DNA from: a bacterium
GTDB taxonomy: Bacteria; Patescibacteriota; Minisyncoccia; Phycocordibacterales; JBBTRF01
Length of the DNA: 64,000 bases
NCBI GenBank assembly: GCA_037130265.1
Contig: JBAXTI010000001.1
Coordinates: 171,086 to 235,085, forward strand
Reading direction: 5' to 3'
In this document: positions 7,687 to 41,973 of the stretch, one piece after another
Layout: each line of letters opens with the position of its first letter
Numbering within the stretch: the stretch's first letter is position 1
The notes under the pieces: generated by a model
The model's database searches: none
What the model saw: only the letters and a program-made list of their open reading frames with translations
What the model was told of the DNA's origin: nothing
Position numbers and translations under genes: made by a program

Positions 7687-9165
7687 ATGGTGAAGCCTAT
7701 GTCCCGCGAAGAGACCGTTGTCCGATTTGAGGAGGTGTCGTTTGAATACGGCCACAACAAGCCCATCCTGGATGAGGTGAGTTTTTCGCTGCGCAAGGGT
7801 ACCAAGACCACGATTATGGGCCAAAACGGGGCTGGAAAGAGCACCCTTTTTCAGCTCATCACCGGTGCGTTGCCTCCGGAAGAGGGAATCATCCACATTG
7901 GCCGGGGTACCAGCATCGCCCTCTCTCGCCAGGTGATCCCGCGCGACGAGCTCGACCTCACCGTCCGCGCATTCTTCGAGAAGCGTTTTGATACCAAAAT
8001 CTACGACATTGACCCACGCATCGACGAGGTGCTCGAAGTGGTGAACCTTAAGGGTCATGAAAAGCTCCATGACCGTATCGTGAAAAGCTTCTCCGGCGGT
8101 CAGCAAGCGCGTTTGTTGCTCGCTTCGGCATTGATTCAAAATCCCGATGTGCTTCTCCTCGATGAGCCAACCAACAATCTCGACAAAGCCGGCATTGCAC
8201 ACCTCACCGACTTTTTGAAGAAGTATGAAAAGACCTGTCTCGTGATCTCACACGACGCAGAGTTTTTGAATTCGTTCACCGATGGCGTGCTCTACCTCGA
8301 CGTGTTCACAAAAAAGATCGAGCAGTATGTCGGCAACTATCTCGACCTGCTTGAAGAAATCTCTGCGCGTATCGAAAAGGAGAATCGCAAAAATGCCCTC
8401 CTCTCGAAAGAGATCCAGGCCAACAAAGATCAGGCCAATGTGTTTGCCAACAAGGGAGGTAATATGCGCCTCGTCGCGAAGCGTATGCGCCAAAAGGCCG
8501 AAGCGCTCGAAGAAGAGAAGGTGGATGTGCGTCGTGAGGATAAGACGATTCGCAACTTTACTATTCCATCCCAGCCGGATTTGTTGGGTGAGATTATTTC
8601 GGTCACTTCTTTTTCAATCATCAATCCGAAGACCCACAAGCCAGTTTCGCGCAAAGTGAAGCTCGTGTTGAAGCGTAATCAGCATTTGTTGCTCAAGGGT
8701 CCAAACGGTATCGGCAAGAGTACCTTGCTCGAGTCTTTGGCGAGCGGCACCTCTGAAGGGGCAAAGATTCAGGATGGTGTGCGTGTCGGCTACTATCGCC
8801 AGGATTTTTCTACACTCAATTTTGAAGACACGGTGTATGACTCACTCGCGAGTGTGATGGACAAGCATATTGTGGAAACTTTGCGCGCGACCGCTGCAGG
8901 TTTTTTGATTACCGAAGAAATGATACACACCAAGATTGGTAGTCTTTCTGAGGGTCAGAAAGGGCTGGTGGCATTTGCACGACTTGTGCTTCAGCGACCG
9001 GGCTTGCTCATTCTCGACGAGCCGACCAACCACATCAACTTCCGTCATTTGCCGGTGATTGCCAAAGCCCTCCACGACTATCAGGGCGCCATGATCCTCG
9101 TGAGCCACGTGCCAGAATTTGTTGAGCAGGTGCGGATTGATGACACGTTGGATTTGGAGAAGTAG
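7687..9165 (+). CDS. ABC-F family ATPase (tandem ABC domains, no TMD)
   Basis: Two Walker A motifs (GQNGAGKST, GPNGIGKST). Two signature/Walker B sets (SGGQQARLLLA+LLLDEPTNNLD; SEGQKGLVAFA+LILDEPTNHIN). Confidence 0.8.
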   Translation: MVKPMSREETVVRFEEVSFEYGHNKPILDEVSFSLRKGTKTTIMGQNGAGKSTLFQLITGALPPEEGIIHIGRGTSIALSRQVIPRDELDLTVRAFFEKRFDTKIYDIDPRIDEVLEVVNLKGHEKLHDRIVKSFSGGQQARLLLASALIQNPDVLLLDEPTNNLDKAGIAHLTDFLKKYEKTCLVISHDAEFLNSFTDGVLYLDVFTKKIEQYVGNYLDLLEEISARIEKENRKNALLSKEIQANKDQANVFANKGGNMRLVAKRMRQKAEALEEEKVDVRREDKTIRNFTIPSQPDLLGEIISVTSFSIINPKTHKPVSRKVKLVLKRNQHLLLKGPNGIGKSTLLESLASGTSEGAKIQDGVRVGYYRQDFSTLNFEDTVYDSLASVMDKHIVETLRATAAGFLITEEMIHTKIGSLSEGQKGLVAFARLVLQRPGLLILDEPTNHINFRHLPVIAKALHDYQGAMILVSHVPEFVEQVRIDDTLDLEK

Positions 9166-21257: not shown

Positions 21258-21405
21258 CTGGGAATTCGAGGGAAAATGTTTGGATGCGGTAATTTCTCGC
21301 TAGAAATTTCCTAGTCCTCGACGACTACTCGTCTGCGGATATCCAAATATTTTTCCTCGAATTCCTTGTTCTGTGGTACTATCTTTTTGATAAGTAAATA
21401 AGATT

Positions 21406-21492
21406 GGAAAGATGCCAGAGCGGTCGAATGGGCAACCCTGGAAAGGTTGTATATCCGAAAGGGTATCGAGGGTTCGAATCCCTCTCTTTCCG
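21406..21492 (+). tRNA. tRNA-Ser (anticodon GGA), long variable arm, CCA not encoded
   Basis: Acceptor GGAAAGA/TCTTTCC, anticodon stem CAACC/GGTTG with loop CTGGAAA, variable arm ATATCC-GAAA-GGGTAT, T-arm GAGGG-TTCGAAT-CCCTC. Confidence 0.6.
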
Positions 21493-21557
21493 CAGTGAGC
21501 GGAGCGAACGTAGGAAAGAAGCAGGCATTTTAATGCCTGCGTGAGGGATTCGAAAAG
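21490..21557 (+). repeat. 68-nt direct repeat, copy 1 (starts in last 3 nt of tRNA-Ser; contains GCAGGCAT-TTTA-ATGCCTGC hairpin and tRNA-Ser 5' acceptor-like GGAAAGA)
   Basis: Matches 22665-22732 with one mismatch by direct reading. Confidence 0.7.
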
Positions 21558-21625
21558 TCTGAGCCTATCGCGCGGAGCGTAGCGAGCACGATGCGAAGAC
21601 TGTACCGAAGCTGTAAGCTTCGAAT

Positions 21626-21650
21626 CCCTCTCTTTCCGCCAGAAAACGAA
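21626..21650 (+). other. 3' fragment of tRNA-Ser (CTTCGAATCCCTCTCTTTCCGCCA, with CCA)
   Basis: 24-nt match to the T-loop/acceptor 3' end of tRNA-Ser(GGA) 135 nt downstream of the intact gene. The T-stem 5' partner is absent, so non-functional. Confidence 0.6.
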
Positions 21651-21844
21651 ATCGGATTTTTGAGCTGAAATTGGGTCGCGCCGAAGGCGCGACACTAATG
21701 CATTCCCCCCCCCGCCGAATTCAGAATCCAAAAGGGTTTTCCACGCTCCGCGTGGCTCAAAAAGTAGTGTTCGATCCAAAATTTTAAAGTTCGCGCAAAG
21801 TGTATAATTACAGCACAAGTTATATTAAATAATTAAATAAAAAT

Positions 21845-22168
21845 ATGGATCTATCAAATAAAAAATGCATACCTTGTGAAGTAGGTGGGGTTGCTTTTAA
21901 ACCAGAAGAAGTTGTAATATTTTCTCGTGATCTTTTAAATTGGGAAGTTTTAGAAAATAAGAAGCTTGTTAGAAAATTTAAATTTAAAGATTTTAAAGAG
22001 TCAATAACTTTTGTAAATAAAGTGGCAGAAATTGCGGAAAAAGAAGGACATCACCCAGATATTGGTATAAATTACAATGAAGTAAATATTGAATTAACTA
22101 CTCATGCGGTCAGAGGACTTACAGAGAATGATTTTATTTTGGCGAGTAAAATAGAAGAGATCATTTAA
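21845..22168 (+). CDS. pterin-4-alpha-carbinolamine dehydratase (PCD/DCoH)-like, AT-rich foreign gene
   Basis: EGHHPD signature ([EQ]xHHP). Coding GC visibly about 30% versus about 50% in flanks. Confidence 0.65.
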   Translation: MDLSNKKCIPCEVGGVAFKPEEVVIFSRDLLNWEVLENKKLVRKFKFKDFKESITFVNKVAEIAEKEGHHPDIGINYNEVNIELTTHAVRGLTENDFILASKIEEII

Positions 22169-22664
22169 TGTGTTTTGTCTTATTTAATAAAAACCTATAC
22201 TTTTTCTCAATTTAATCTCGCCCGAATTCCCCGCAACAAAAAGAGGAGCAAATGGAAAATTCCTCCCCCAACCCCTCCTTTTCCATTTGGGACTTCCGAA
22301 CTCAAAAACAAATGAGCCGAAGTTTTGGCGAATCCTCTTCTTACAGAAGCTGTACACCTTTCACATTTTTGAGTACAAAATGCTCAAGGTCTTGCGAAAG
22401 TGTCCCACACTTTCTCACCCCAAAAAATAGTTTTGCCAAAACTTCGTCCGCATTGTTCCGTCACTTGCCCGAATACTTGGAGGGCAGAACCCCGAAAGAA
22501 AAACACCCTTTCCTTTTTCAAAAGAAATTTCACCCCTGCCAAATCAGAAATGCAAGGAGTGTTTTTCTTTCGGGGTTGCCGAGGCTTTGCGAGGCAGTGG
22601 CGGGACGATTCATTCATCACTGTGATTTTGCTCGAAATACATTCGAACTTTGTCCAGAACACAC

Positions 22665-22732
22665 CGCAGTGAGCGGAGCGGACGTAGGAAAGAAGCAGGC
22701 ATTTTAATGCCTGCGTGAGGGATTCGAAAAGG
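22665..22732 (+). repeat. 68-nt direct repeat, copy 2
   Basis: See copy 1. Bounds a roughly 1.1-kb segment with copy 1. Confidence 0.7.
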
Positions 22733-22839
22733 TTCTCCCATATTTTCGAGAAGCGAGCTCGCGAGCTTCGAGAAAATGGGAAACCTGTACTGGTCCTGTA
22801 AGGACCGAATCTCTGTCGAAAATTTGGTACAATAACAGT

Positions 22840-23460
22840 ATGAAAATTTTCCTTATCATCGTTGCGATAATCGTGCTCTGGTCAATCTGGGGGTATTACT
22901 CCTCAAATGTTGAGCAGGCGGTGTATTCGGTGATGAAAAAAGCCGATGGATACGAAATACGTGAATACCCAGCGCATATCGCAGCGCAAACGACGGTTGA
23001 GGGTTCGTACGACGACGCTCTGAATGAGGGGTTCGGTATCATTGCGGGATACATTTTTGGTGGGAATAGTAAGAAGCAAGGTATCTCCATGACGGCACCC
23101 GTAACAGCACAAGAGTCTGTGTCTGAGAAAATCGCGATGACGGCTCCAGTGGTTGCGAGCACCGAAGGAGGCTCACGTGTCATTTCTTTTGTTATGCCAA
23201 AATCCTATACACTTGAGTCATTGCCTGTCCCGAATGATTCGAGGGTGAAGCTCGTGCAAGTGCCGGAAAAAAAGATGGCCGCGCTTCGTTTTTCTTGGAC
23301 ACGAAACAGTGGTCGAGTACAGAAGATGGAAGATCAACTACTCGCAATGCTTTCTCGCGATAAAGTCGAGGTGGTCGGTGCTCCGGCCTACGCTGGCTAC
23401 AATGCTCCCTGGACACCGCCATGGATGACTCGAAATGAGGTGTTGGTGGAAATAAAGTAA
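22840..23460 (+). CDS. SOUL heme-binding family protein
   Basis: About 200 aa with N-terminal anchor. Overall similarity to SOUL/HBP family (from memory). Confidence 0.5.
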   Translation: MKIFLIIVAIIVLWSIWGYYSSNVEQAVYSVMKKADGYEIREYPAHIAAQTTVEGSYDDALNEGFGIIAGYIFGGNSKKQGISMTAPVTAQESVSEKIAMTAPVVASTEGGSRVISFVMPKSYTLESLPVPNDSRVKLVQVPEKKMAALRFSWTRNSGRVQKMEDQLLAMLSRDKVEVVGAPAYAGYNAPWTPPWMTRNEVLVEIK

Positions 23461-23476
23461 CTGTCTATTTCTAGAC

Positions 23477-23857
23477 ATGAAACGAAACGTATTTGCAATC
23501 GTTGGCACACTCGCTTTGTTACTTTTCGGATATTACGTTATTGTGCCACGCTTCTTGCATCAAAGTACTTCCCAAACAGCGAGTTCGTCATTGGAGGAGA
23601 TTACTCTTTCTGGCACTTACACATGTTTACCACTCTTAGATAAGACCAAGGTGCGTGAAGGTGAGTGTGTCTTCGGCATGCGAACAGAGGATGGGGAGTA
23701 CTACATGGTAAATTTCGGCGCCTCCGCTTCCGCAATGGCAGAATTTCAGAATCGTGCACACATCACTGCTAAGGGCTTTGTGAATTTGAAGGAAACTCTG
23801 AATACTGATCAGTGGGCGCCCTATGATATGAAAGGGGTGTTTACGATCACGGAGTGA
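23477..23857 (+). CDS. hypothetical secreted protein
   Basis: N-terminal TM/signal. 126 aa. Confidence 0.4.
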   Translation: MKRNVFAIVGTLALLLFGYYVIVPRFLHQSTSQTASSSLEEITLSGTYTCLPLLDKTKVREGECVFGMRTEDGEYYMVNFGASASAMAEFQNRAHITAKGFVNLKETLNTDQWAPYDMKGVFTITE

Positions 23858-23926
23858 CCTGTTGTTTTGTGGGATGTGAATAGTCGTAAATTTTGATAAA
23901 ATAGATTCCCCTCCTCGAGGTATCCT

Positions 23927-25654
23927 ATGGATTCAAAAAAGCTGCAAAGCCCCACCCAACCCAGCCTCTTCGCCCTTTTGAAGCCCTACAAGCTGCTCAT
24001 TGGCTGGCTTGTGGTGCTCGCCCTCGGCAGTAACGGCCTTACGCTCTGGCTTCCGCGCCTTCTCTCGCACGGTATCGACGGCTACTTCGCCAAGGGTTCG
24101 CTCGACACTATTCTCTGGCAGTTTGGCATCGCCTCGGTAGCCATTTTCATCCTGACCTACCTCCAGAATATCGTCCAGACCTATGCCTCCGAGCGTGTTG
24201 CTCGTGATCTGCGCAATGAACTCTCCGACAAAATCTCCACCCACAGCTTTGCCGAAGTGCAGCTCGCGACCCCTGCTAAGCTCCTCACCAACCTCACTTC
24301 CGATATCGATTCCGTGAAGGGCTTTGTCGCGCAGGCCGTGTCCAACGTTATCTCCTCAGTCTTTCTCATTATTGGCGGTAGTATTTTGCTCATTTCGATC
24401 AACTGGAAGCTCGGCCTTTCGGTGCTCATCGTCCTGCCGATCATCGGGGAAACTTTTGCGGTGATCCTCGGCAAGGTGCGTAAACTATTTATTCAATCTC
24501 GCGAGGTCATCGACTGGCTCAACAAGGTCATCAACGAAAGCATCCTCGGCGCGGCACTCATTCGAGTGGTCAATTCGCAGAGTTCGGAGCACGACAAATT
24601 CGTCGAAGCCAACACCAAGGCCAAGAATGTCGGCGTCGGCATCCTCAAGCTCTTTTCGGCGATGATCCCCATCGTCACCTTCGCTTCCAATCTCGCGATC
24701 CTGATTATCCTCGTGCTCGGCGGAAAATTTATCATTGGTGGTGTCATGACCCTCGGAGAATTCGCGTCGTTCAACAGCTACCTCACTATTCTCATTTTCC
24801 CAATCTTCATTTTGGGCTTTGTGAGCAACATTATCGCTCAAGCGCAGGCTTCCTATGGCCGAATCCACACGGTACTCGCCATGCCGAAGCCGAGAGACGA
24901 CGGCACTGTGACCGCGCCGCTCAAGGGTGCGATCGAGGTCGAGAAGGTGAGCTTGTTGTTTGGCGAAAAGGCCGCTCTAAAGAATATTTCGCTGCGTATC
25001 CAGCCGGGGAGCAAGGTGGCAATCATTGGTCCGACGGCAGCGGGGAAAACGCAGCTCATGAGTCTGCTCATTGGTCTCATCCAGCCCACCTCCGGCGATA
25101 TCAAATACGACGGCATTGCTCTGCCGGCATACCGCCGTGAGCAGCTCTACAAACAGGTCGGGCTCGTCTTCCAGGACAGCATCATTTTCAATATTAGCTT
25201 GAGAGAAAACATTGCATTTAACACCGAGGTCACCAAGGAGGCGATGCAGAAGGCTATCGACACGGCGGAGCTAGCGGACTTCATTAAGACGCTGCCGAAC
25301 GGCCTCGAGCAATTGGTTTCCGAGCGCGGCACCAGCTTGTCCGGCGGACAGAAGCAACGCATCATGCTCGCTCGTGCTTTGGCGATCGATCCAAAGGTGC
25401 TCTTGCTGGATGATTTCACTGCGCGTGTCGACGCCAATACCGAGAAGAAGATCTTGGAGAATGTCTCGAAGAATTACCCAGGCCTCACTCTGGTGTCGGT
25501 GACGCAGAAAATCGCTTCGGTCGAAAGCTACGACCAGATCGTGGTGCTTATGGAAGGCGAAGTGGTCGCTTCTGGTACACATGCCGAACTCATGGCTACC
25601 TCACCTGAGTACGTGCAGATTTACCAATCACAGCAGAGCACCAACGCCCTATGA
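23927..25654 (+). CDS. ABC exporter, fused permease-ATPase (subunit 1 of heterodimer)
   Basis: Six TM helices followed by an NBD with Walker A GPTAAGKT, signature LSGGQKQR, Walker B LLLDD. Confidence 0.8.
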   Translation: MDSKKLQSPTQPSLFALLKPYKLLIGWLVVLALGSNGLTLWLPRLLSHGIDGYFAKGSLDTILWQFGIASVAIFILTYLQNIVQTYASERVARDLRNELSDKISTHSFAEVQLATPAKLLTNLTSDIDSVKGFVAQAVSNVISSVFLIIGGSILLISINWKLGLSVLIVLPIIGETFAVILGKVRKLFIQSREVIDWLNKVINESILGAALIRVVNSQSSEHDKFVEANTKAKNVGVGILKLFSAMIPIVTFASNLAILIILVLGGKFIIGGVMTLGEFASFNSYLTILIFPIFILGFVSNIIAQAQASYGRIHTVLAMPKPRDDGTVTAPLKGAIEVEKVSLLFGEKAALKNISLRIQPGSKVAIIGPTAAGKTQLMSLLIGLIQPTSGDIKYDGIALPAYRREQLYKQVGLVFQDSIIFNISLRENIAFNTEVTKEAMQKAIDTAELADFIKTLPNGLEQLVSERGTSLSGGQKQRIMLARALAIDPKVLLLDDFTARVDANTEKKILENVSKNYPGLTLVSVTQKIASVESYDQIVVLMEGEVVASGTHAELMATSPEYVQIYQSQQSTNAL

Positions 25655-27423
25655 AATACGACCTAAACAAAATCAGCGACGGCAAGAAAACATCCAATTG
25701 GCAGGCGGCCAAGAAGATGTTGCCGTTGCTTGCGGAGGAAAGGACTATCATTACTGTCGCGCTCATCGCGGTGGTCGTGAATTCTGGCCTCAGCCTCACG
25801 GCACCTCGCCTCATTGCTCATGCCGTAGACACATTCATCGTGAGCGGGGACTATCACGGCGTACTCGTGTATTCCGGCTACATTCTCATTATCTTTTTGT
25901 TCGGCCTCGTCACCAGCTATACGCAGATTCGCCTCATGGGTGGCGTGGGGCAGCGCGTGCTGTATCGTCTACGCAATCAGATCTTTGAGAAGCTCCAATC
26001 TTTGCCGATCGTCTTTTTCAATCAAAACAAAGCTGGCGACTTGATCTCCAGAATCAACAACGACACGGACAAGATTAATCAATTCTTCTCGCAATCGTTA
26101 GTACAATTTTTTGCCAACATCTTTTTGATGGCCGGTGCCGCAGTCTTTCTGGTGAGCCTCAATCTCAAGCTCGGAGCTGCAACCCTTGCACCTGCGGTCG
26201 TCTTGCTCGTGTTCACGCTCACACTGTCACCTTGGGTGAAGCGCAAGAATCTCGGCAGCGCTCAATCGCTCGGCGGCATGAGTTCGGAGATCCAGGAGAG
26301 TCTCAACAATTTCAAGGTTATTATCGCTTTCAATCGCCGCGACTATTTTAAGAAGCGTTTTCAGGAGGTGAATGACCGCAATTACGATTCGGCGGTGGGC
26401 GCCGGTGTGGCCAACAACACCTTCGTGCCTATCTACGGCCTCGCTTCCAACATTGGCCAACTTATCGTGCTCGCCTACGGTATCTCGCTCATCGCGTCGG
26501 GGCAGTTTACTGTCGGTCTACTCATCGGCTTTCTCTCATATGCCAACAACTTCTATAACCCGCTCCGCCAGCTTGCCGCTCTGTGGGCCAACTTCCAGAC
26601 CGCCATGGCCAGCTGGGATCGCGTGCATGAGATCTTGGTGATTAAGAACGATCTGCTTGTGTTGGAGGATATCGAAGCTAGCGCGAAAGGTACAAAGAAA
26701 ACAGAAACAATACTCGAATTCAAAGATGTGAGTTTTACCTATCCCGATGGCAAAGAAGTACTCCATCACATCAATCTCGATCTCAAGAAAGGGAAGACCT
26801 ACGCGCTCGTCGGCCCGACCGGCGGCGGCAAGACCACTACAGCGTCGCTGATGGCGCGATTGTATGATCCGACCACCGGCAGCGTCTTTTTGGACAGTAG
26901 AGATATTCGTGGTTACTCGGCCGAGGAGCGCGCCAAGAAGATCGGCTTCATTTTGCAGGAGCCGGTGCTGTTTACCGGCACAGTGAAGGAGAATATTTTG
27001 TACGGCAATCCCGTCTATGCTTCCCACACCAATGAACAGTTGAAGCAGGTCATCCACGAGGCCGGCCTGGAGCGATTGTTGCAGCGTTTTGATCAGGGCT
27101 TGGAAACCAAGCTCACGGCGAGCGGGGATGCTGTCAGTCTCGGCCAGAAGCAGCTTATTGCCTTTATTCGTGCGGTGCTCCGCAATCCGGAGTTGCTCAT
27201 CCTGGATGAGGCGACGGCGAACATCGACACCGTCACCGAGCAGCTGCTCGAGGATATTTTGCGTAATCTGCCGGCTCACACGACTCGAGTGATTATTGCG
27301 CATCGCCTGAATACGATCCAGAATGCAGATGAAATCTTCTTTGTAAATGCCGGCGAGGTCGTCCGAGCCGGCTCGATGGATCACGCACTGGAAATGTTGC
27401 TGCATCGCAACAGGAATAGTTAG
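25651..27423 (+). CDS. ABC exporter, fused permease-ATPase (subunit 2)
   Basis: TMD plus NBD (GPTGGGKTT, SLGQKQL, LILDEATANID). ATGA 4-nt overlap with subunit 1. Confidence 0.8.
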   Translation: MKYDLNKISDGKKTSNWQAAKKMLPLLAEERTIITVALIAVVVNSGLSLTAPRLIAHAVDTFIVSGDYHGVLVYSGYILIIFLFGLVTSYTQIRLMGGVGQRVLYRLRNQIFEKLQSLPIVFFNQNKAGDLISRINNDTDKINQFFSQSLVQFFANIFLMAGAAVFLVSLNLKLGAATLAPAVVLLVFTLTLSPWVKRKNLGSAQSLGGMSSEIQESLNNFKVIIAFNRRDYFKKRFQEVNDRNYDSAVGAGVANNTFVPIYGLASNIGQLIVLAYGISLIASGQFTVGLLIGFLSYANNFYNPLRQLAALWANFQTAMASWDRVHEILVIKNDLLVLEDIEASAKGTKKTETILEFKDVSFTYPDGKEVLHHINLDLKKGKTYALVGPTGGGKTTTASLMARLYDPTTGSVFLDSRDIRGYSAEERAKKIGFILQEPVLFTGTVKENILYGNPVYASHTNEQLKQVIHEAGLERLLQRFDQGLETKLTASGDAVSLGQKQLIAFIRAVLRNPELLILDEATANIDTVTEQLLEDILRNLPAHTTRVIIAHRLNTIQNADEIFFVNAGEVVRAGSMDHALEMLLHRNRNS

Positions 27424-27446
27424 GGTTCTTGGTGTAGCGGCGGAAA

Positions 27447-27522
27447 TAAAATTTTCTTTATCGGAAATTAGTGAAAAATTGAACCTTTCTTAGCAGTTTC
27501 TCTATCGGTGTTTTTGTATGCT
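27447..27522 (+). promoter_or_regulatory. Conserved upstream module, copy 2
   Basis: AATTTTC-6-GGAAATT palindrome. Phased TTTCTTAG (27486) and TTTCTCTA (27497). -10-like TATGCT. Confidence 0.5.
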
Positions 27523-41692: not shown

Positions 41693-41763
41693 GCGGGTAT
41701 GGTTTAGTGGTAGAATGCGACCTTCCCAAGGTTGAGACCTGAGTTCGATTCTCAGTACCCGCA
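41693..41763 (+). tRNA. tRNA-Gly (anticodon CCC), CCA not encoded
   Basis: Acceptor GCGGGTA/TACCCGC 7/7, anticodon loop TTCCCAA, T-arm CTGAG-TTCGATT-CTCAG. Confidence 0.6.
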
Positions 41764-41771
41764 CAAACAAC

Positions 41772-41797: not shown

Positions 41798-41973
41798 TGC
41801 GGGTAAGTAAGTGCCTTGAGGCACTTACGTCTGAGAATCGAAAGGCTTTTCCTTATCGAATGAGTGAAGCGAAATGAGATGGAAAAGCACCTGGCTACGT
41901 AGTAGCCGATTCTCAGTTGCCTTCACCGTTACAAAAGCGGTATACTTACCCTCACCAACTAACCACCACCAAA

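What the first reader, a model, noticed from the sequence alone, without database searches (positions are those of the whole stretch)
21406..22732. Mini genomic islet at the 3' end of tRNA-Ser(GGA) bounded by 68-nt direct repeats
The last 3 nt of tRNA-Ser plus 65 nt downstream (21490-21557) recur 1175 bp later (22665-22732) with a single mismatch. Between the repeats lie:
- a 24-nt copy of the tRNA-Ser 3' end including CCA (21626-21650), attL/attR-like;
- a C9 homopolymer;
- a strongly AT-rich (about 30% GC) gene for a pterin-4a-carbinolamine dehydratase-like protein;
- a non-coding segment with a 19-bp perfect inverted repeat.

The repeat unit itself contains the tRNA-Ser acceptor heptamer GGAAAGA fused to a perfect 8-bp hairpin. 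Together this looks like the scar of site-specific integration at a tRNA gene with foreign cargo. No recombinase is present, so it is a decayed or non-autonomous islet.
Basis: partly seen in the sequence, partly recalled or inferred. Interest (0 to 1): 0.6.

Follow-up and report, generated by a model that had tools for sequence, protein, structure and literature searches.

The report
Decayed integrase islet between tRNA-linked hairpin elements
Next to a serine tRNA gene of a tiny uncultured (Patescibacteria) bacterium lies the wreck of a mobile element that brought in a foreign gene, and the "68-nt repeats" around it belong to a widespread hairpin-forming DNA element, absent from Rfam, that sits behind tRNA genes across this whole bacterial group.

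Summary

**The islet.** Segment 21640-22667 is a decayed integrative element of a large-serine-recombinase (LSR) family.
- Its left end still encodes the last 57 codons of the recombinase on the minus strand, 84% identical to intact homologues.
- Its ends match the ends of intact elements in other Patescibacteria.
- The junctions share a 4-nt core, CCGC, at the tRNA 3' terminus.
- The PCD gene is a 343-bp block, 95% identical to low-GC Zambryskibacteria DNA (GC3 17% versus 52-71% in neighbouring genes).
- Two relatives lack the islet.

**The repeats.** The 68-nt repeats are not the att duplication. They are the 5' halves of two tandem copies of a ~150-nt structured element, here called X.
- A motif scan found X in at least 119 species-representative genomes, nearly all Patescibacteria.
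- X usually lies directly 3' of a tRNA gene, and of many isotypes.
- X carries an inverted copy and a direct copy of that tRNA's 3' end, around a three-way junction with strong covariation.
- Rfam has no match.
- Its helices lack the G·U excess seen in tRNA stems, which favours a DNA-level hairpin element.

What X does remains unproven.

The parts
21406..21493 (+). tRNA-Ser(GGA). No CCA is encoded: the sequence reads ...TCTTTCC-G-C|AGTG.
   Evidence: ARAGORN. Rfam tRNA 55.5 bits. Identical over 91 nt in relatives L008, L010 and L011.
21473..21493 (+). Block A: from the tRNA T-loop to C74 (TTCGAATCCCTCTCTTTCCGC). This is the first copy of the 21-nt direct repeat.
   Evidence: the repeat finder family D2, 100% identity.
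21494..21557 (+). 5' half of element X1. It holds the spacer AGTGAGCGG..., the complement of the acceptor 3' strand (GGAAAGA, 21513-21519), hairpin Pa (21521-21540) and the complement of T-stem plus T-loop (GAGGGATTCGAA, 21543-21554).
   Evidence: Folds against the tRNA 3' half and against 21619-21639.
21542..21632 (+). X1 core, a three-way junction: P2 (GGATTCG/CGAATCC), long hairpin P3, GTACCG, and small hairpin P4 (GAAGC-TGTAA-GCTTC).
   Evidence: Covariance model R1, 74.1 bits, E 1.4e-18. The core sub-type is closest to L098 (84%) and is only 62% identical to X2.
21619..21642 (+). R1: the 3' arm of X1, and the second copy of the tRNA 3' end (21619-21639). It is completed to CCA by the first two bases of the inserted element. 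It forms the left half of attL.
   Evidence: The same junction...TTTCCGC|CA..., is seen at the intact element in L133.
21636..21639 (+). CCGC core of attL.
   Evidence: CCGC is shared by attL, attR and the internal attP-like junction in L041 and L133 and in the window.
21621..21794 (-). Remnant of a large-serine-recombinase gene, last 57-58 codons, running through the junction into the tRNA copy. On the + strand, 21640-21794 is the element's left end (LE). The C9 run at 21705-21713 supplies its Gly codons.
   Evidence: tblastn of P0241 residues 450-506, 84.5% identity, E 5.9e-25. BLASTP E 4e-31. 92% nucleotide identity to L041 6397-6512. P0241 carries the Resolvase, Recombinase and Zn_ribbon_recom domains.
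21827..22169 (+). Horizontally acquired block holding the intact PCD (4a-hydroxytetrahydrobiopterin dehydratase) gene, ORF 21845-22168.
   Evidence: 95.0% nucleotide identity over 343 nt to Zambryskibacteria loci L004-L007, and nothing beyond that block. Pfam Pterin_4a 1e-31. GC 29%, GC3 17%. Protein P0122 is 93% identical.
22170..22623 (.). Non-coding mosaic of the element's right part. It includes the hairpin at 22488-22577.
   Evidence: Pieces are 74-95% identical to non-coding DNA next to X elements or LSR ends in L077, L033, L074, L013, L119 and L124. No Pfam hit for the 151-aa ORF.
22624..22663 (+). Right end (RE) of the LSR element (...CATTCGAACTTTGTCCAGAACACA).
   Evidence: 86-91% identical to the RE of elements in L082, L047, L133 and L041.
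22664..22667 (+). CCGC core of attR.
   Evidence: The same ACACACCGC|host junction occurs in L041 and L133.
22668..22731 (+). 5' half of element X2. With CCGC 22664-22667 it makes 68-nt repeat copy 2.
   Evidence: L008 has one orthologous copy directly behind its tRNA-Ser.
22716..22817 (+). X2 core (P4 = GGTCC-TGTAA-GGACC) with a degenerate 3' arm, CGAATCTCTGTC.
   Evidence: Model R1, 73.0 bits, E 2.7e-18. 85% identical to the L008 core. BLAST 22664-22814 = L008 7253-7396, 90.7%.
41830..41918 (+). A third X element of the same genome, behind tRNA-Gly(CCC) at 41693-41764. It lies outside the finding and shows that the family is multi-copy here.
   Evidence: Model R1, 44.5 bits, E 4e-10. Its 5' arm GAGAATCGAA is complementary to that tRNA's T-loop variant TTCGATT.

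Best explanation
The locus is an integration hotspot at the 3' end of tRNA-Ser(GGA). It holds two different things.

**1. A decayed recombinase element (21640-22667, 1028 bp).**
- It belongs to a very abundant Patescibacteria family of integrative elements driven by a large serine recombinase (LSR).
- Such elements recombine at a short core, CCGC (discriminator G73 plus C74 of a tRNA-Ser 3' end).
- They place the recombinase gene antisense against the tRNA, so that its ORF reads through the junction.
- They donate the 'CA' that completes CCA.
- In the window only the last 57 codons of the recombinase survive. The rest was replaced by a 343-bp block carrying an intact PCD gene from a low-GC Zambryskibacteria-like donor. 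The right-hand non-coding part and the right end are retained.
- The element can no longer move by itself.

**2. Two tandem copies of element X, which give the 68-nt repeats.**
- Each X consists of a spacer; an inverted copy of the tRNA's acceptor and T-arm 3' strand, interrupted by a hairpin; a three-way-junction core (P2, P3, P4 with conserved GATTCGAA, GTACYG, CTGTAAG and CGAATC); and a direct copy of the tRNA 3' end.
- The direct copy of X1, followed by the spacer of X2, recreates the tRNA-end/spacer junction. That is where the LSR element integrated.

**Shown**
- The anatomy, the homologies, the empty sites and the covariation.
- The genomic distribution of X.
- The foreign origin of PCD.

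**Inferred**
- The order of events.
- Recombination actually occurring at CCGC.
- X acting at the DNA level as a hairpin-forming, non-autonomous mobile or recombination module.
For: **Recombinase remnant**
- tblastn 84.5% over 58 aa, E 5.9e-25. BLASTP E 4e-31.
- The homologue P0241 has Resolvase + Recombinase + Zn_ribbon_recom domains.
- It is 25-28% identical to phage serine integrases.

**Element ends**
- Window 21640-21758 matches L041 6397-6512 at 92%.
- Window 22624-22663 matches the RE of L082, L047, L133 and L041 at 86-91%.

**Junction logic, identical in the window and in L133**
- attL: tRNA...TTTCCGC|CA-LE.
- attR: ...ACACACCGC|AG-host.
- Internal junction...ACACACCGC|CA-LE.
- In L133 the LSR ORF overlaps tRNA-Ser(GCT) in antisense.

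**Empty sites**
- L008 has tRNA-Ser followed by one X (99% and 91% identity to the two window halves), with no PCD. L010 has the identical tRNA without the islet.

**Foreign PCD**
- 95% nucleotide identity to 34%-GC loci over exactly 343 nt, and GC3 of 17%.

**X family**
My own estimate of the chance expectation is about 9.
- 87 of 112 X copies have a same-strand tRNA 66-319 nt upstream. A separate nhmmer census gave 98 of 125.
- 156 covariance-model hits, including arrays such as Cys-X-Leu-X.
- Structure: 92% of cells paired. Covariation score 0.534 against 0.152 when shuffled and 0.07-0.13 when slid.
- No Rfam family.
- X1 and X2 have different core sub-types, 62% identical to each other. 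X1 is closest to L098 (84%) and X2 to L008 (85%).

**DNA-level signature of X**
- G·U:A·C is 22:17 in X helices against 78:8 in tRNA stems of the same loci (Fisher p = 2.4e-5).
Against: - There is no intact recombinase in the 64-kb window, so activity and the exact crossover point are inferred from sequence comparison only.
- RE homology is short, 40-44 nt.
- The near identity of the two 68-nt halves (67/68), next to unrelated 3' halves, is not explained by simple tandem duplication. It needs gene conversion, unequal or homologous recombination, or an unknown property of X insertion.
- A single homologous-recombination insertion of a circle through the 68-nt stretch would give the same map.
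- How the 343-bp PCD block replaced the recombinase gene is unknown.
- For X, no associated enzyme was found. Neighbour clustering gave mainly housekeeping genes.
- X could not be searched for across a whole genome.
Confidence: 0.75

Rival explanations
1. A 1174-bp circle integrated once, and the 68-nt repeats are the duplicated attachment or recombination site. This could be by a site-specific enzyme with a 68-nt identity block, or by homologous recombination between the host X and an X carried on the incoming DNA.
For: - L008 has exactly one copy of the 68-nt unit, joined to the X2-type 3' half. The window therefore equals L008 plus 1174 bp.
- The single mismatch (A in copy 1 and in L008, G in copy 2) fits a crossover to the right of position 18.
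- X1's core is of a foreign sub-type.
Against: - Inside those 1174 bp lie a complete LSR-type attL and attR with the family's own ends and the CCGC core. These define different boundaries, 21640-22667.
- The 68-mer is the standard 5' half of a family that follows tRNAs with no cargo attached.
- Tandem X-X arrays without cargo exist elsewhere: L039, L049, L075, L093, L130.
- The two models are not mutually exclusive. An LSR element sitting between two X copies in a donor could have been moved by homologous recombination.
Confidence: 0.25
2. X is a functional non-coding RNA. It would be a tRNA-like molecule with an acceptor-stem mimic, a variable-arm-like hairpin and an extended T-arm, either co-transcribed with the tRNA or acting on its precursor. 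On this view the repeat reflects duplication of an RNA gene.
For: - The layout follows tRNA order: acceptor 5' mimic, hairpin, T-stem 5' mimic, core, T-stem 3', acceptor 3', discriminator, and sometimes CCA.
- There is strong covariation and there are invariant loop and junction nucleotides.
- X always lies on the tRNA strand.
Against: - There is no G·U excess in the helices: 22:17 against 78:8 in tRNAs.
- The 3' arm, needed for the acceptor mimic, often departs from the tRNA sequence. The 5' arm stays complementary to the tRNA: 17 versus 2 of 20 informative cases. Mismatches in that pairing are as often A·C as G·U, 16 versus 19.
- Canonical terminator-like hairpins often lie between the tRNA and the X core.
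- X is present or absent at orthologous tRNAs of related genomes: L051 versus L076, and L008 versus L010.
- No Rfam or ARAGORN match.
Confidence: 0.25
3. The 68-nt unit is merely a generic transcription terminator or insulator behind tRNA genes, and the islet is native DNA.
For: - Hairpin Pa scores as a terminator-like site, but only on the minus strand.
- Many X spacers contain hairpin + T-run motifs.
Against: - On the tRNA strand, Pa is not followed by a T-run.
- A terminator does not explain the conserved three-way junction, the tRNA-specific arms or the direct repeat of the tRNA end.
- The islet is absent from relatives and PCD is compositionally foreign.
Confidence: 0.03

Closest known systems
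Tandem and degenerate integrative elements at tRNA genes, e.g. Prochlorococcus tycheposons and their remnants (bioRxiv 10.1101/2020.12.28.424599), and CIME-type integrase-less derivatives of integrative elements (from my own knowledge)
   Same: - Site-specific integration at the 3' end of a tRNA gene in a streamlined genome.
- Successive insertions that push older ones outward.
- Partial tRNA copies as boundaries, fragmented integrases, and small cargo. The tycheposon paper also reports a minority of elements with a large serine recombinase.
   Different: - Here the recombinase is a large serine recombinase with only a 4-nt shared core, rather than a tyrosine integrase with a 20-50-nt identity block.
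- The element is reduced to about 1 kb.
- The partial tRNA copy at its left border belongs to a separate structured element, X.
Large serine integrases of phages and ICEs (phiC31, Bxb1, A118, TP901-1 type; general properties from my own knowledge)
   Same: - Domain set Resolvase + Recombinase + zinc ribbon.
- 25-28% identity to Bacillus and Streptococcus phage integrases.
- Short crossover core.
- The TTCGAA motif lies 5 bp further from the core in the element's RE than in the tRNA arm. This resembles the known 5-bp offset between attP and attB half-sites. It is my own reading of the sequences and was not tested.
   Different: - The target is the extreme 3' end of tRNA-Ser genes.
- The ORF reads through attL into the tRNA antisense.
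- The gene is flanked by ~116-bp inverted repeats, and the element holds an internal inverted attP-like junction.
- The family is unusually uniform, at least 81% identity among the 120 best clusters.
Integron attC sites and other folded single-strand recombination sites such as CTX-phi attP(+) (from my own knowledge)
   Same: - X is an imperfect hairpin-forming unit conserved in structure rather than sequence.
- It has two inverted arms which, when folded, would reproduce the duplex of the target (the tRNA 3' end).
- In several loci, single genes or small gene sets lie between consecutive X units.
   Different: - No IntI or Xer-type enzyme has been linked to X.
- No GTTRRRY/RYYYAAC core is present.
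- X is usually found without any cargo, and its arms are specific to the neighbouring tRNA.
- Membership is not claimed.
MITEs, REPINs and IS200/IS605-derived palindromic elements (from my own knowledge)
   Same: - Small (~150 nt), non-coding, multi-copy and hairpin-rich, with inverted arms.
- Presence/absence polymorphism.
- Pairing is almost entirely Watson-Crick.
   Different: - Strict association with tRNA 3' ends and a fixed orientation.
- The flanking repeat is 19-21 nt of the target, starting in the T-loop and ending at C74, not a short fixed target-site duplication.
- No transposase has been identified.

Membership tests
tRNA-integrated genomic island/islet | Lies at the 3' end of a tRNA gene and is bounded by a displaced or duplicated tRNA 3' segment | tested here: met
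   tRNA-Ser at 21406-21493, with a second copy of its last 21 nt at 21619-21639 directly abutting the inserted DNA.
tRNA-integrated genomic island/islet | Absent from the same site in related genomes (empty site) | tested here: met
   L008 has tRNA-X followed by peptidase S8. L010 has the same tRNA with different cargo. Neither has PCD.
tRNA-integrated genomic island/islet | Composition or phylogeny of the cargo deviates from the host | tested here: met
   PCD GC3 is 17% against 52-71%. The block is 95% identical at the nucleotide level to 34%-GC Zambryskibacteria DNA.
Large-serine-recombinase integrative element | Encodes a protein with Resolvase, Recombinase and zinc-ribbon domains | tested here: not met
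   Only the C-terminal 57-58 codons remain in the window. Intact homologues in L041, L132 and L133 have all three domains. The window copy is therefore a remnant, not a functional member.
Large-serine-recombinase integrative element | Element ends (P and P' arms) homologous to those of intact family members, with a short common core at attL, attR and attP | tested here: met
   LE is 88-95% identical and RE 86-91% identical to L041, L132, L133, L047 and L082. CCGC is common to all junctions.
Large-serine-recombinase integrative element | Recombination activity at these sites | not testable with these tools
   Needs an in-vitro or in-vivo attP x attB assay.
PCD/DCoH (Pfam PF01329) | Full-length match above the gathering score, with the HHPD motif | tested here: met
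   109.3 bits against a cut-off of 26, covering profile positions 12-91 of 91. The motif GHHPD is visible in the translation.
Any described RNA family (Rfam 15), including tRNA-like RNAs, tmRNA and Y-like RNAs | Covariance-model match for the X element | tested here: not met
   Only the tRNAs and spurious sub-threshold hits at E <= 1 were found. ARAGORN finds no tmRNA.
Structured RNA (generic) | Excess of G·U over A·C in covarying helices on the transcribed strand | tested here: not met
   22 G·U against 17 A·C in X. The tRNA stems of the same loci have 78 against 8, p = 2.4e-5.
Integron gene cassette / attC | R''-L''...L'-R' site with RYYYAAC/GTTRRRY boxes and an IntI integrase | tested here: not met
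   No such boxes are visible in X. No tyrosine recombinase was found among recurrent neighbours. The resemblance is architectural only.
Intrinsic terminator (for the 68-nt unit) | GC-rich hairpin followed by a T-run on the transcribed strand | tested here: not met
   The terminator-like call for hairpin Pa is on the minus strand only.
MITE-like non-autonomous element (for X) | Multi-copy, inverted arms, flanking repeat of the target, presence/absence polymorphism | tested here: met
   Three copies in the window. 156 hits in 122 loci. Inverted (L) and direct (R) copies of the tRNA end. Polymorphism: L051 versus L076, and L008 versus L010.
MITE-like non-autonomous element (for X) | A cognate transposase or recombinase encoded by autonomous relatives | tested here: inconclusive
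   No recurrent enzyme lies next to X. Serine recombinases occur in 5 of 119 loci, but X does not share their ends. Whole genomes could not be profiled.

The most novel reading that the evidence does not exclude
X is a new class of hairpin-forming DNA element specific to tRNA 3' ends in Patescibacteria.
- It would be a miniature, enzyme-less integrative or recombination module.
- When folded, its two arms reproduce the duplex of the tRNA's T-loop-to-C74 segment.
- By leaving a fresh copy of that segment behind itself, it multiplies attachment sites.
- The result would be that tRNA genes become expandable arrays into which recombinase elements and small gene cassettes, such as the PCD islet, are stacked. 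This would be an attC-like or integron-like logic built on tRNA ends.
Probability: 0.35. Interest if true: 0.85.

Novelty: new variant of a known kind. Interest (0 to 1): 0.62.

Why it matters
**The islet.** On its own it is an ordinary, though neatly dissected, example of gene gain in a streamlined genome. A recombinase element decays and leaves one freshly imported metabolic gene.

**The tRNA-trailing element.** What matters more is what the repeats turned out to be.
- X is a conserved element present across Patescibacteria, often behind every tRNA of a cluster. It is absent from Rfam, and six full-text literature searches found nothing matching it.
- If it is a DNA recombination module, it could help explain how bacteria with about 1-Mb genomes and few classical mobile elements still exchange genes at tRNA hotspots.
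- It would also add a new kind of folded-DNA attachment site.
- If instead it is an RNA, it is a new tRNA-mimicking class.

**The recombinase family.** It is very uniform and very abundant: 7441 proteins at E <= 1e-30, capped at 8000 scored candidates, and at least 81% identity among the best 120 clusters. It targets the CCA end of tRNA-Ser. It is a candidate, well-defined site-specific integrase for organisms that still lack genetic tools.

Tried and rejected
- **Rfam.** Scans at E <= 1 of the locus and of an X-rich relative found nothing but tRNAs.
- **Viral contigs.** Scans for the 3' motif and for the 5' half gave 0 hits. Searching the phage collection with a high-scoring X gave no match.
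- **Metagenome scan** for the exact 42-nt core of the 68-mer gave 0 hits, so no conspecific empty site was obtained.
- **An enzyme next to X.** Clustering 1380 neighbouring ORFs gave mostly housekeeping genes in conserved synteny (PilM, ComF, HtpX, IF-2, RecG). Serine recombinases appeared in only 5 loci.
- **X as a duplicated tRNA gene.** Rejected. Where tRNA stems hold G·U pairs, the X 5' arm is the Watson-Crick complement of the 3' strand, not a copy of the 5' strand, in the informative cases L088, L115 and L130.
- **The acceptor/T-stem pairing within X as the selected feature.** Rejected. The 5' arm follows the tRNA rather than X's own 3' arm, 17 versus 2.
- **Hammerhead ribozyme.** Mapping the three-way junction onto the hammerhead core by eye does not fit the junction strands. 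This was my own reasoning, not a tool result.
- **Encoded CCA as a polarity marker.** Weak. 7 of 100 X-linked tRNAs encode CCA, against 13 of 67 others, p = 0.027. The 3' arm is followed by CCA in 8 of 35 full-length cases, while the tRNA-proximal copy carries CCA in only one of those.
- **PCD genes near X in Kaiserbacteria loci.** These are native genes upstream of tRNA-Ala, not cargo.
- **Literature.** Six full-text searches found no description of X or of this recombinase family in the Candidate Phyla Radiation (CPR).
Full report
**Checking the observation.**
- tRNA-Ser(GGA) lies at 21406-21493.
- The 68-nt direct repeat lies at 21490-21557 and 22664-22731, with one mismatch. Shuffles give no such repeat.
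- A 21-nt perfect second copy of the tRNA 3' end lies at 21619-21639 and runs on to CCA.
- There is a C9 run and an AT-rich PCD gene at 21845-22168 (Pfam Pterin_4a 1e-31; GC 29%).
- An inverted repeat lies at 22488-22577.
- Coordinates of the second repeat and of the tRNA copy are off by 1 and 7 nt respectively.

**The repeat is half of a larger structured unit.**
- Each repeat copy is followed by a long variable hairpin, then GTACYG, then a small hairpin with loop TGTAA, then CGAATC.
- The stems of the small hairpin differ between the two copies by compensatory changes: GAAGC/GCTTC versus GGTCC/GGACC.
- I call the whole unit X. X1 is about 21494-21642 and X2 about 22668-22817.

**Related genomes.**
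- The window comes from a Patescibacteria MAG (ERZ4222710, 368-kb contig).
- Synteny (RNase J, SBP, SecG, LemA, TPM ... peptidase S8, RNR) is kept in two relatives, L008 (TPM 70% identical) and L010 (64%).
- L008 has the identical tRNA followed by one X. Its 5' half equals the 68-mer (99%) and its 3' half equals X2 (91%). The peptidase gene follows directly. This is an empty site for the PCD insertion.
- L010 has the identical tRNA with an encoded CCA. It then has a two-gene, integrase-less cargo, and then a displaced 19-nt tRNA 3' end followed by AGTGA, the same trailer as in the window.
- The tRNA is therefore a hotspot with different contents in each genome.
- The block 22818-27478 (SOUL, ABC transporters) is also absent from both relatives.

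**The cargo.**
- The PCD block 21827-22169 is 95% identical at the DNA level to four Zambryskibacteria loci over exactly 343 nt. Nothing outside that block matches.
- Those loci are 34% GC, against 50% for the window. PCD has a GC3 of 17% against 52-71% for its neighbours.
- The closest proteins are all from Patescibacteria.
- This is a very recent single-gene import.

**The element that carried or preceded it.** The non-coding flanks of PCD are repeated in other genomes.
- Window 21640-21758 is 92% identical to L041 6397-6512, which lies just upstream of a serine recombinase gene.
- An inverted copy of the same sequence forms that gene's 3' end.
- Accordingly, the minus strand of 21621-21794 encodes ...NFKILDRTLLFEPRGAWKTLLDSEFGGGGNALVSRLRRDPISAQKSDFVFWRKERDS. 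This is 84% identical to residues 450-506 of the 516-aa recombinase P0241.
- The C9 run supplies its glycine codons.
- P0241 has the Resolvase, Recombinase and zinc-ribbon domains. It is 25-28% identical to phage serine integrases.
- Its family is large and uniform: 7441 proteins at E <= 1e-30, and the 120 best clusters are all at least 81% identical.
- Protein lengths vary from 494 to 647 aa. The sequenced members read through the junction into the antisense of a tRNA (...FWRRRRDSN...), which could account for this variation.
- In L133 the gene overlaps tRNA-Ser(GCT) in antisense.
- The junctions in L133 are:
  - attL: tRNA...TTTCCGC|CAAAATTGG
  - internal junction: ...ACACACCGC|CAAAATTGG
  - attR...ACACACCGC|AGAAGTGAAAG
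- The window has the same pattern: ...TCTTTCCGC|CAGAAAACG at 21639|21640 and ...AACACACCGC|AGTGAGCGG at 22667|22668.
- The last 40-44 nt before the right junction are 86-91% identical to the right ends in L082, L047, L133 and L041.
- Segment 21640-22667 is therefore a recombinase-less remnant of this element family, bounded by a 4-nt core.

**What the 68-mers are.** My own estimate of the chance expectation is about 9. Nearly all hits are Patescibacteria.
- In 87 of 112 cases with enough flank, a tRNA on the same strand ends 66-319 nt upstream. Isotypes include Ser (46), Tyr, Ala, Lys, Arg, Val, Asp and others.
- The 3' end of X repeats the tRNA from T-loop position C56 to C74, with a modal length of 19-21 nt, sometimes running on into the trailer.
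- The 5' part holds the complement of the T-loop and T-stem, and often of the acceptor strand and trailer.
- That 5' arm even follows T-loop variants: TTCGATT pairs with AATCGAA, and TTCAAGT with ACTTGAA.
- An 80-sequence alignment supports a three-way junction. 92% of cells are paired. The covariation score is 0.534, against 0.152 when shuffled and 0.07-0.13 when slid.
- The covariance model finds three copies in the window, the third behind tRNA-Gly(CCC).
- It finds 156 copies in 122 loci. These include clusters in which each tRNA has its own X, and tandem X-X arrays.
- A separate nhmmer census found a tRNA upstream of 98 of 125 X copies.
- Rfam has no matching family.

**RNA or DNA?**
- The layout imitates a tRNA, but three results argue against an RNA under selection.
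- First, G·U is no more frequent than A·C in the covarying helices: 22 versus 17. The tRNA stems of the same loci show 78 versus 8 (p = 2.4e-5).
- Second, the 3' arm frequently departs from the tRNA sequence while the 5' arm stays complementary to the tRNA itself: 17 versus 2 of 20 informative cases. Mismatches in that pairing are as often A·C as G·U.
- Third, X is present or absent at orthologous tRNAs.
- I therefore favour a DNA-level, hairpin-forming, non-autonomous element. This is inference.

**How the pieces fit.**
- X1's 3' arm followed by X2's spacer recreates the tRNA-end/spacer junction that the recombinase family uses. The element sits exactly there.
- The same arrangement (X, 3' arm, LE) recurs in L074.
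- In L047 a right end is joined in inverted orientation to the GCGG of an X 5' arm.
- X copies thus act as extra attachment sites.
- X1 and X2 have unrelated cores (62% identity; X1 is closest to L098, X2 to L008), yet their 5' halves are nearly identical.
- This mosaic needs gene conversion, unequal recombination, or a homologous-recombination insertion through the 68-mer. I could not decide between these.

**Comparison with known systems.**
- The islet works like degenerate elements at tRNA hotspots in other streamlined genomes, such as the tycheposon islands.
- It fails membership as a functional LSR element only because the gene is gone.
- X resembles attC or CTX-type folded sites and MITEs/REPINs in design, but it meets the defining features of none of them.

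**Verdict.**
- The islet is a new member of a known kind.
- The repeat family it exposed does not fit any described class I could test it against.

Noticed in passing
window 41830-41918 (with tRNA-Gly(CCC) at 41693-41764): A third, more divergent X element (44.5 bits). Its spacer forms a long fold-back with the tRNA 3' end and trailer. Its 5' arm matches the tRNA's unusual T-loop, TTCGATT.
   Followed up: partly
window 22818-27478: The SOUL haem-binding gene, a 126-aa ORF and two ABC-transporter genes have no counterpart in relatives L008 and L010. Synteny resumes at 27479. This looks like an older cargo block of normal GC at the same hotspot.
   Followed up: partly
L010 7062-8620; L029 2669-4432: Small integrase-less cargos of 1.5-1.8 kb and two genes each. 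They are inserted at tRNA-Ser 3' ends with 19-nt and 14-nt repeats of the tRNA end. The cargo supplies the CA of CCA. Their ends differ from the LSR family, so a second kind of element uses the same site.
   Followed up: partly
L041 4016-8000; L132 6787-10656; L133 6181-10605: Intact LSR elements share an odd architecture. The recombinase gene is flanked by ~116-bp inverted repeats, one of which encodes its own C-terminus. An internal inverted attP-like junction (LE'-GCGG-RE') follows. The cargo is flanked by inverted copies of the right end. This suggests invertible modules.
   Followed up: partly
proteins P0241-P0360: The LSR family is extremely abundant and uniform across many Patescibacteria MAGs. 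There are 7441 proteins at E <= 1e-30, and the top 120 clusters are at least 81% identical. This implies very recent spread between species.
   Followed up: no
L047 1410-7114: 5.7 kb lies between two X elements. It holds an XRE-type regulator, a LexA-like/C5-cytosine-methyltransferase fusion and several unknown ORFs (defence-island-like). An LSR-type right end is present in inverted orientation.
   Followed up: no
window 21261-21285 / 21341-21365: A 25-nt inverted repeat (92% complementary), centred on GAATTC motifs, lies just upstream of tRNA-Ser. GAATTC-containing motifs (GCCGAATTC at ~21717, GCCCGAATTC at ~22222) also flank the PCD block.
   Followed up: no
window 22466-22579: The hairpin with the 19-bp perfect stem is 90% identical to L077 16-128, which lies ~190 nt upstream of two X elements. 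It is a conserved non-coding module of unknown role.
   Followed up: no
L003 1-160 (Logan SRR12676966 contig): An independent assembly of the same organism breaks inside the 68-nt repeat, just upstream of the SOUL gene. This is consistent with the repeat also being present twice in that sample.
   Followed up: no
L015, L030: Two X-bearing contigs are labelled Thermodesulfobacteriota and Patiriisocius (Bacteroidota). They may be mis-binned Patescibacteria contigs or real occurrences outside the group.
   Followed up: no
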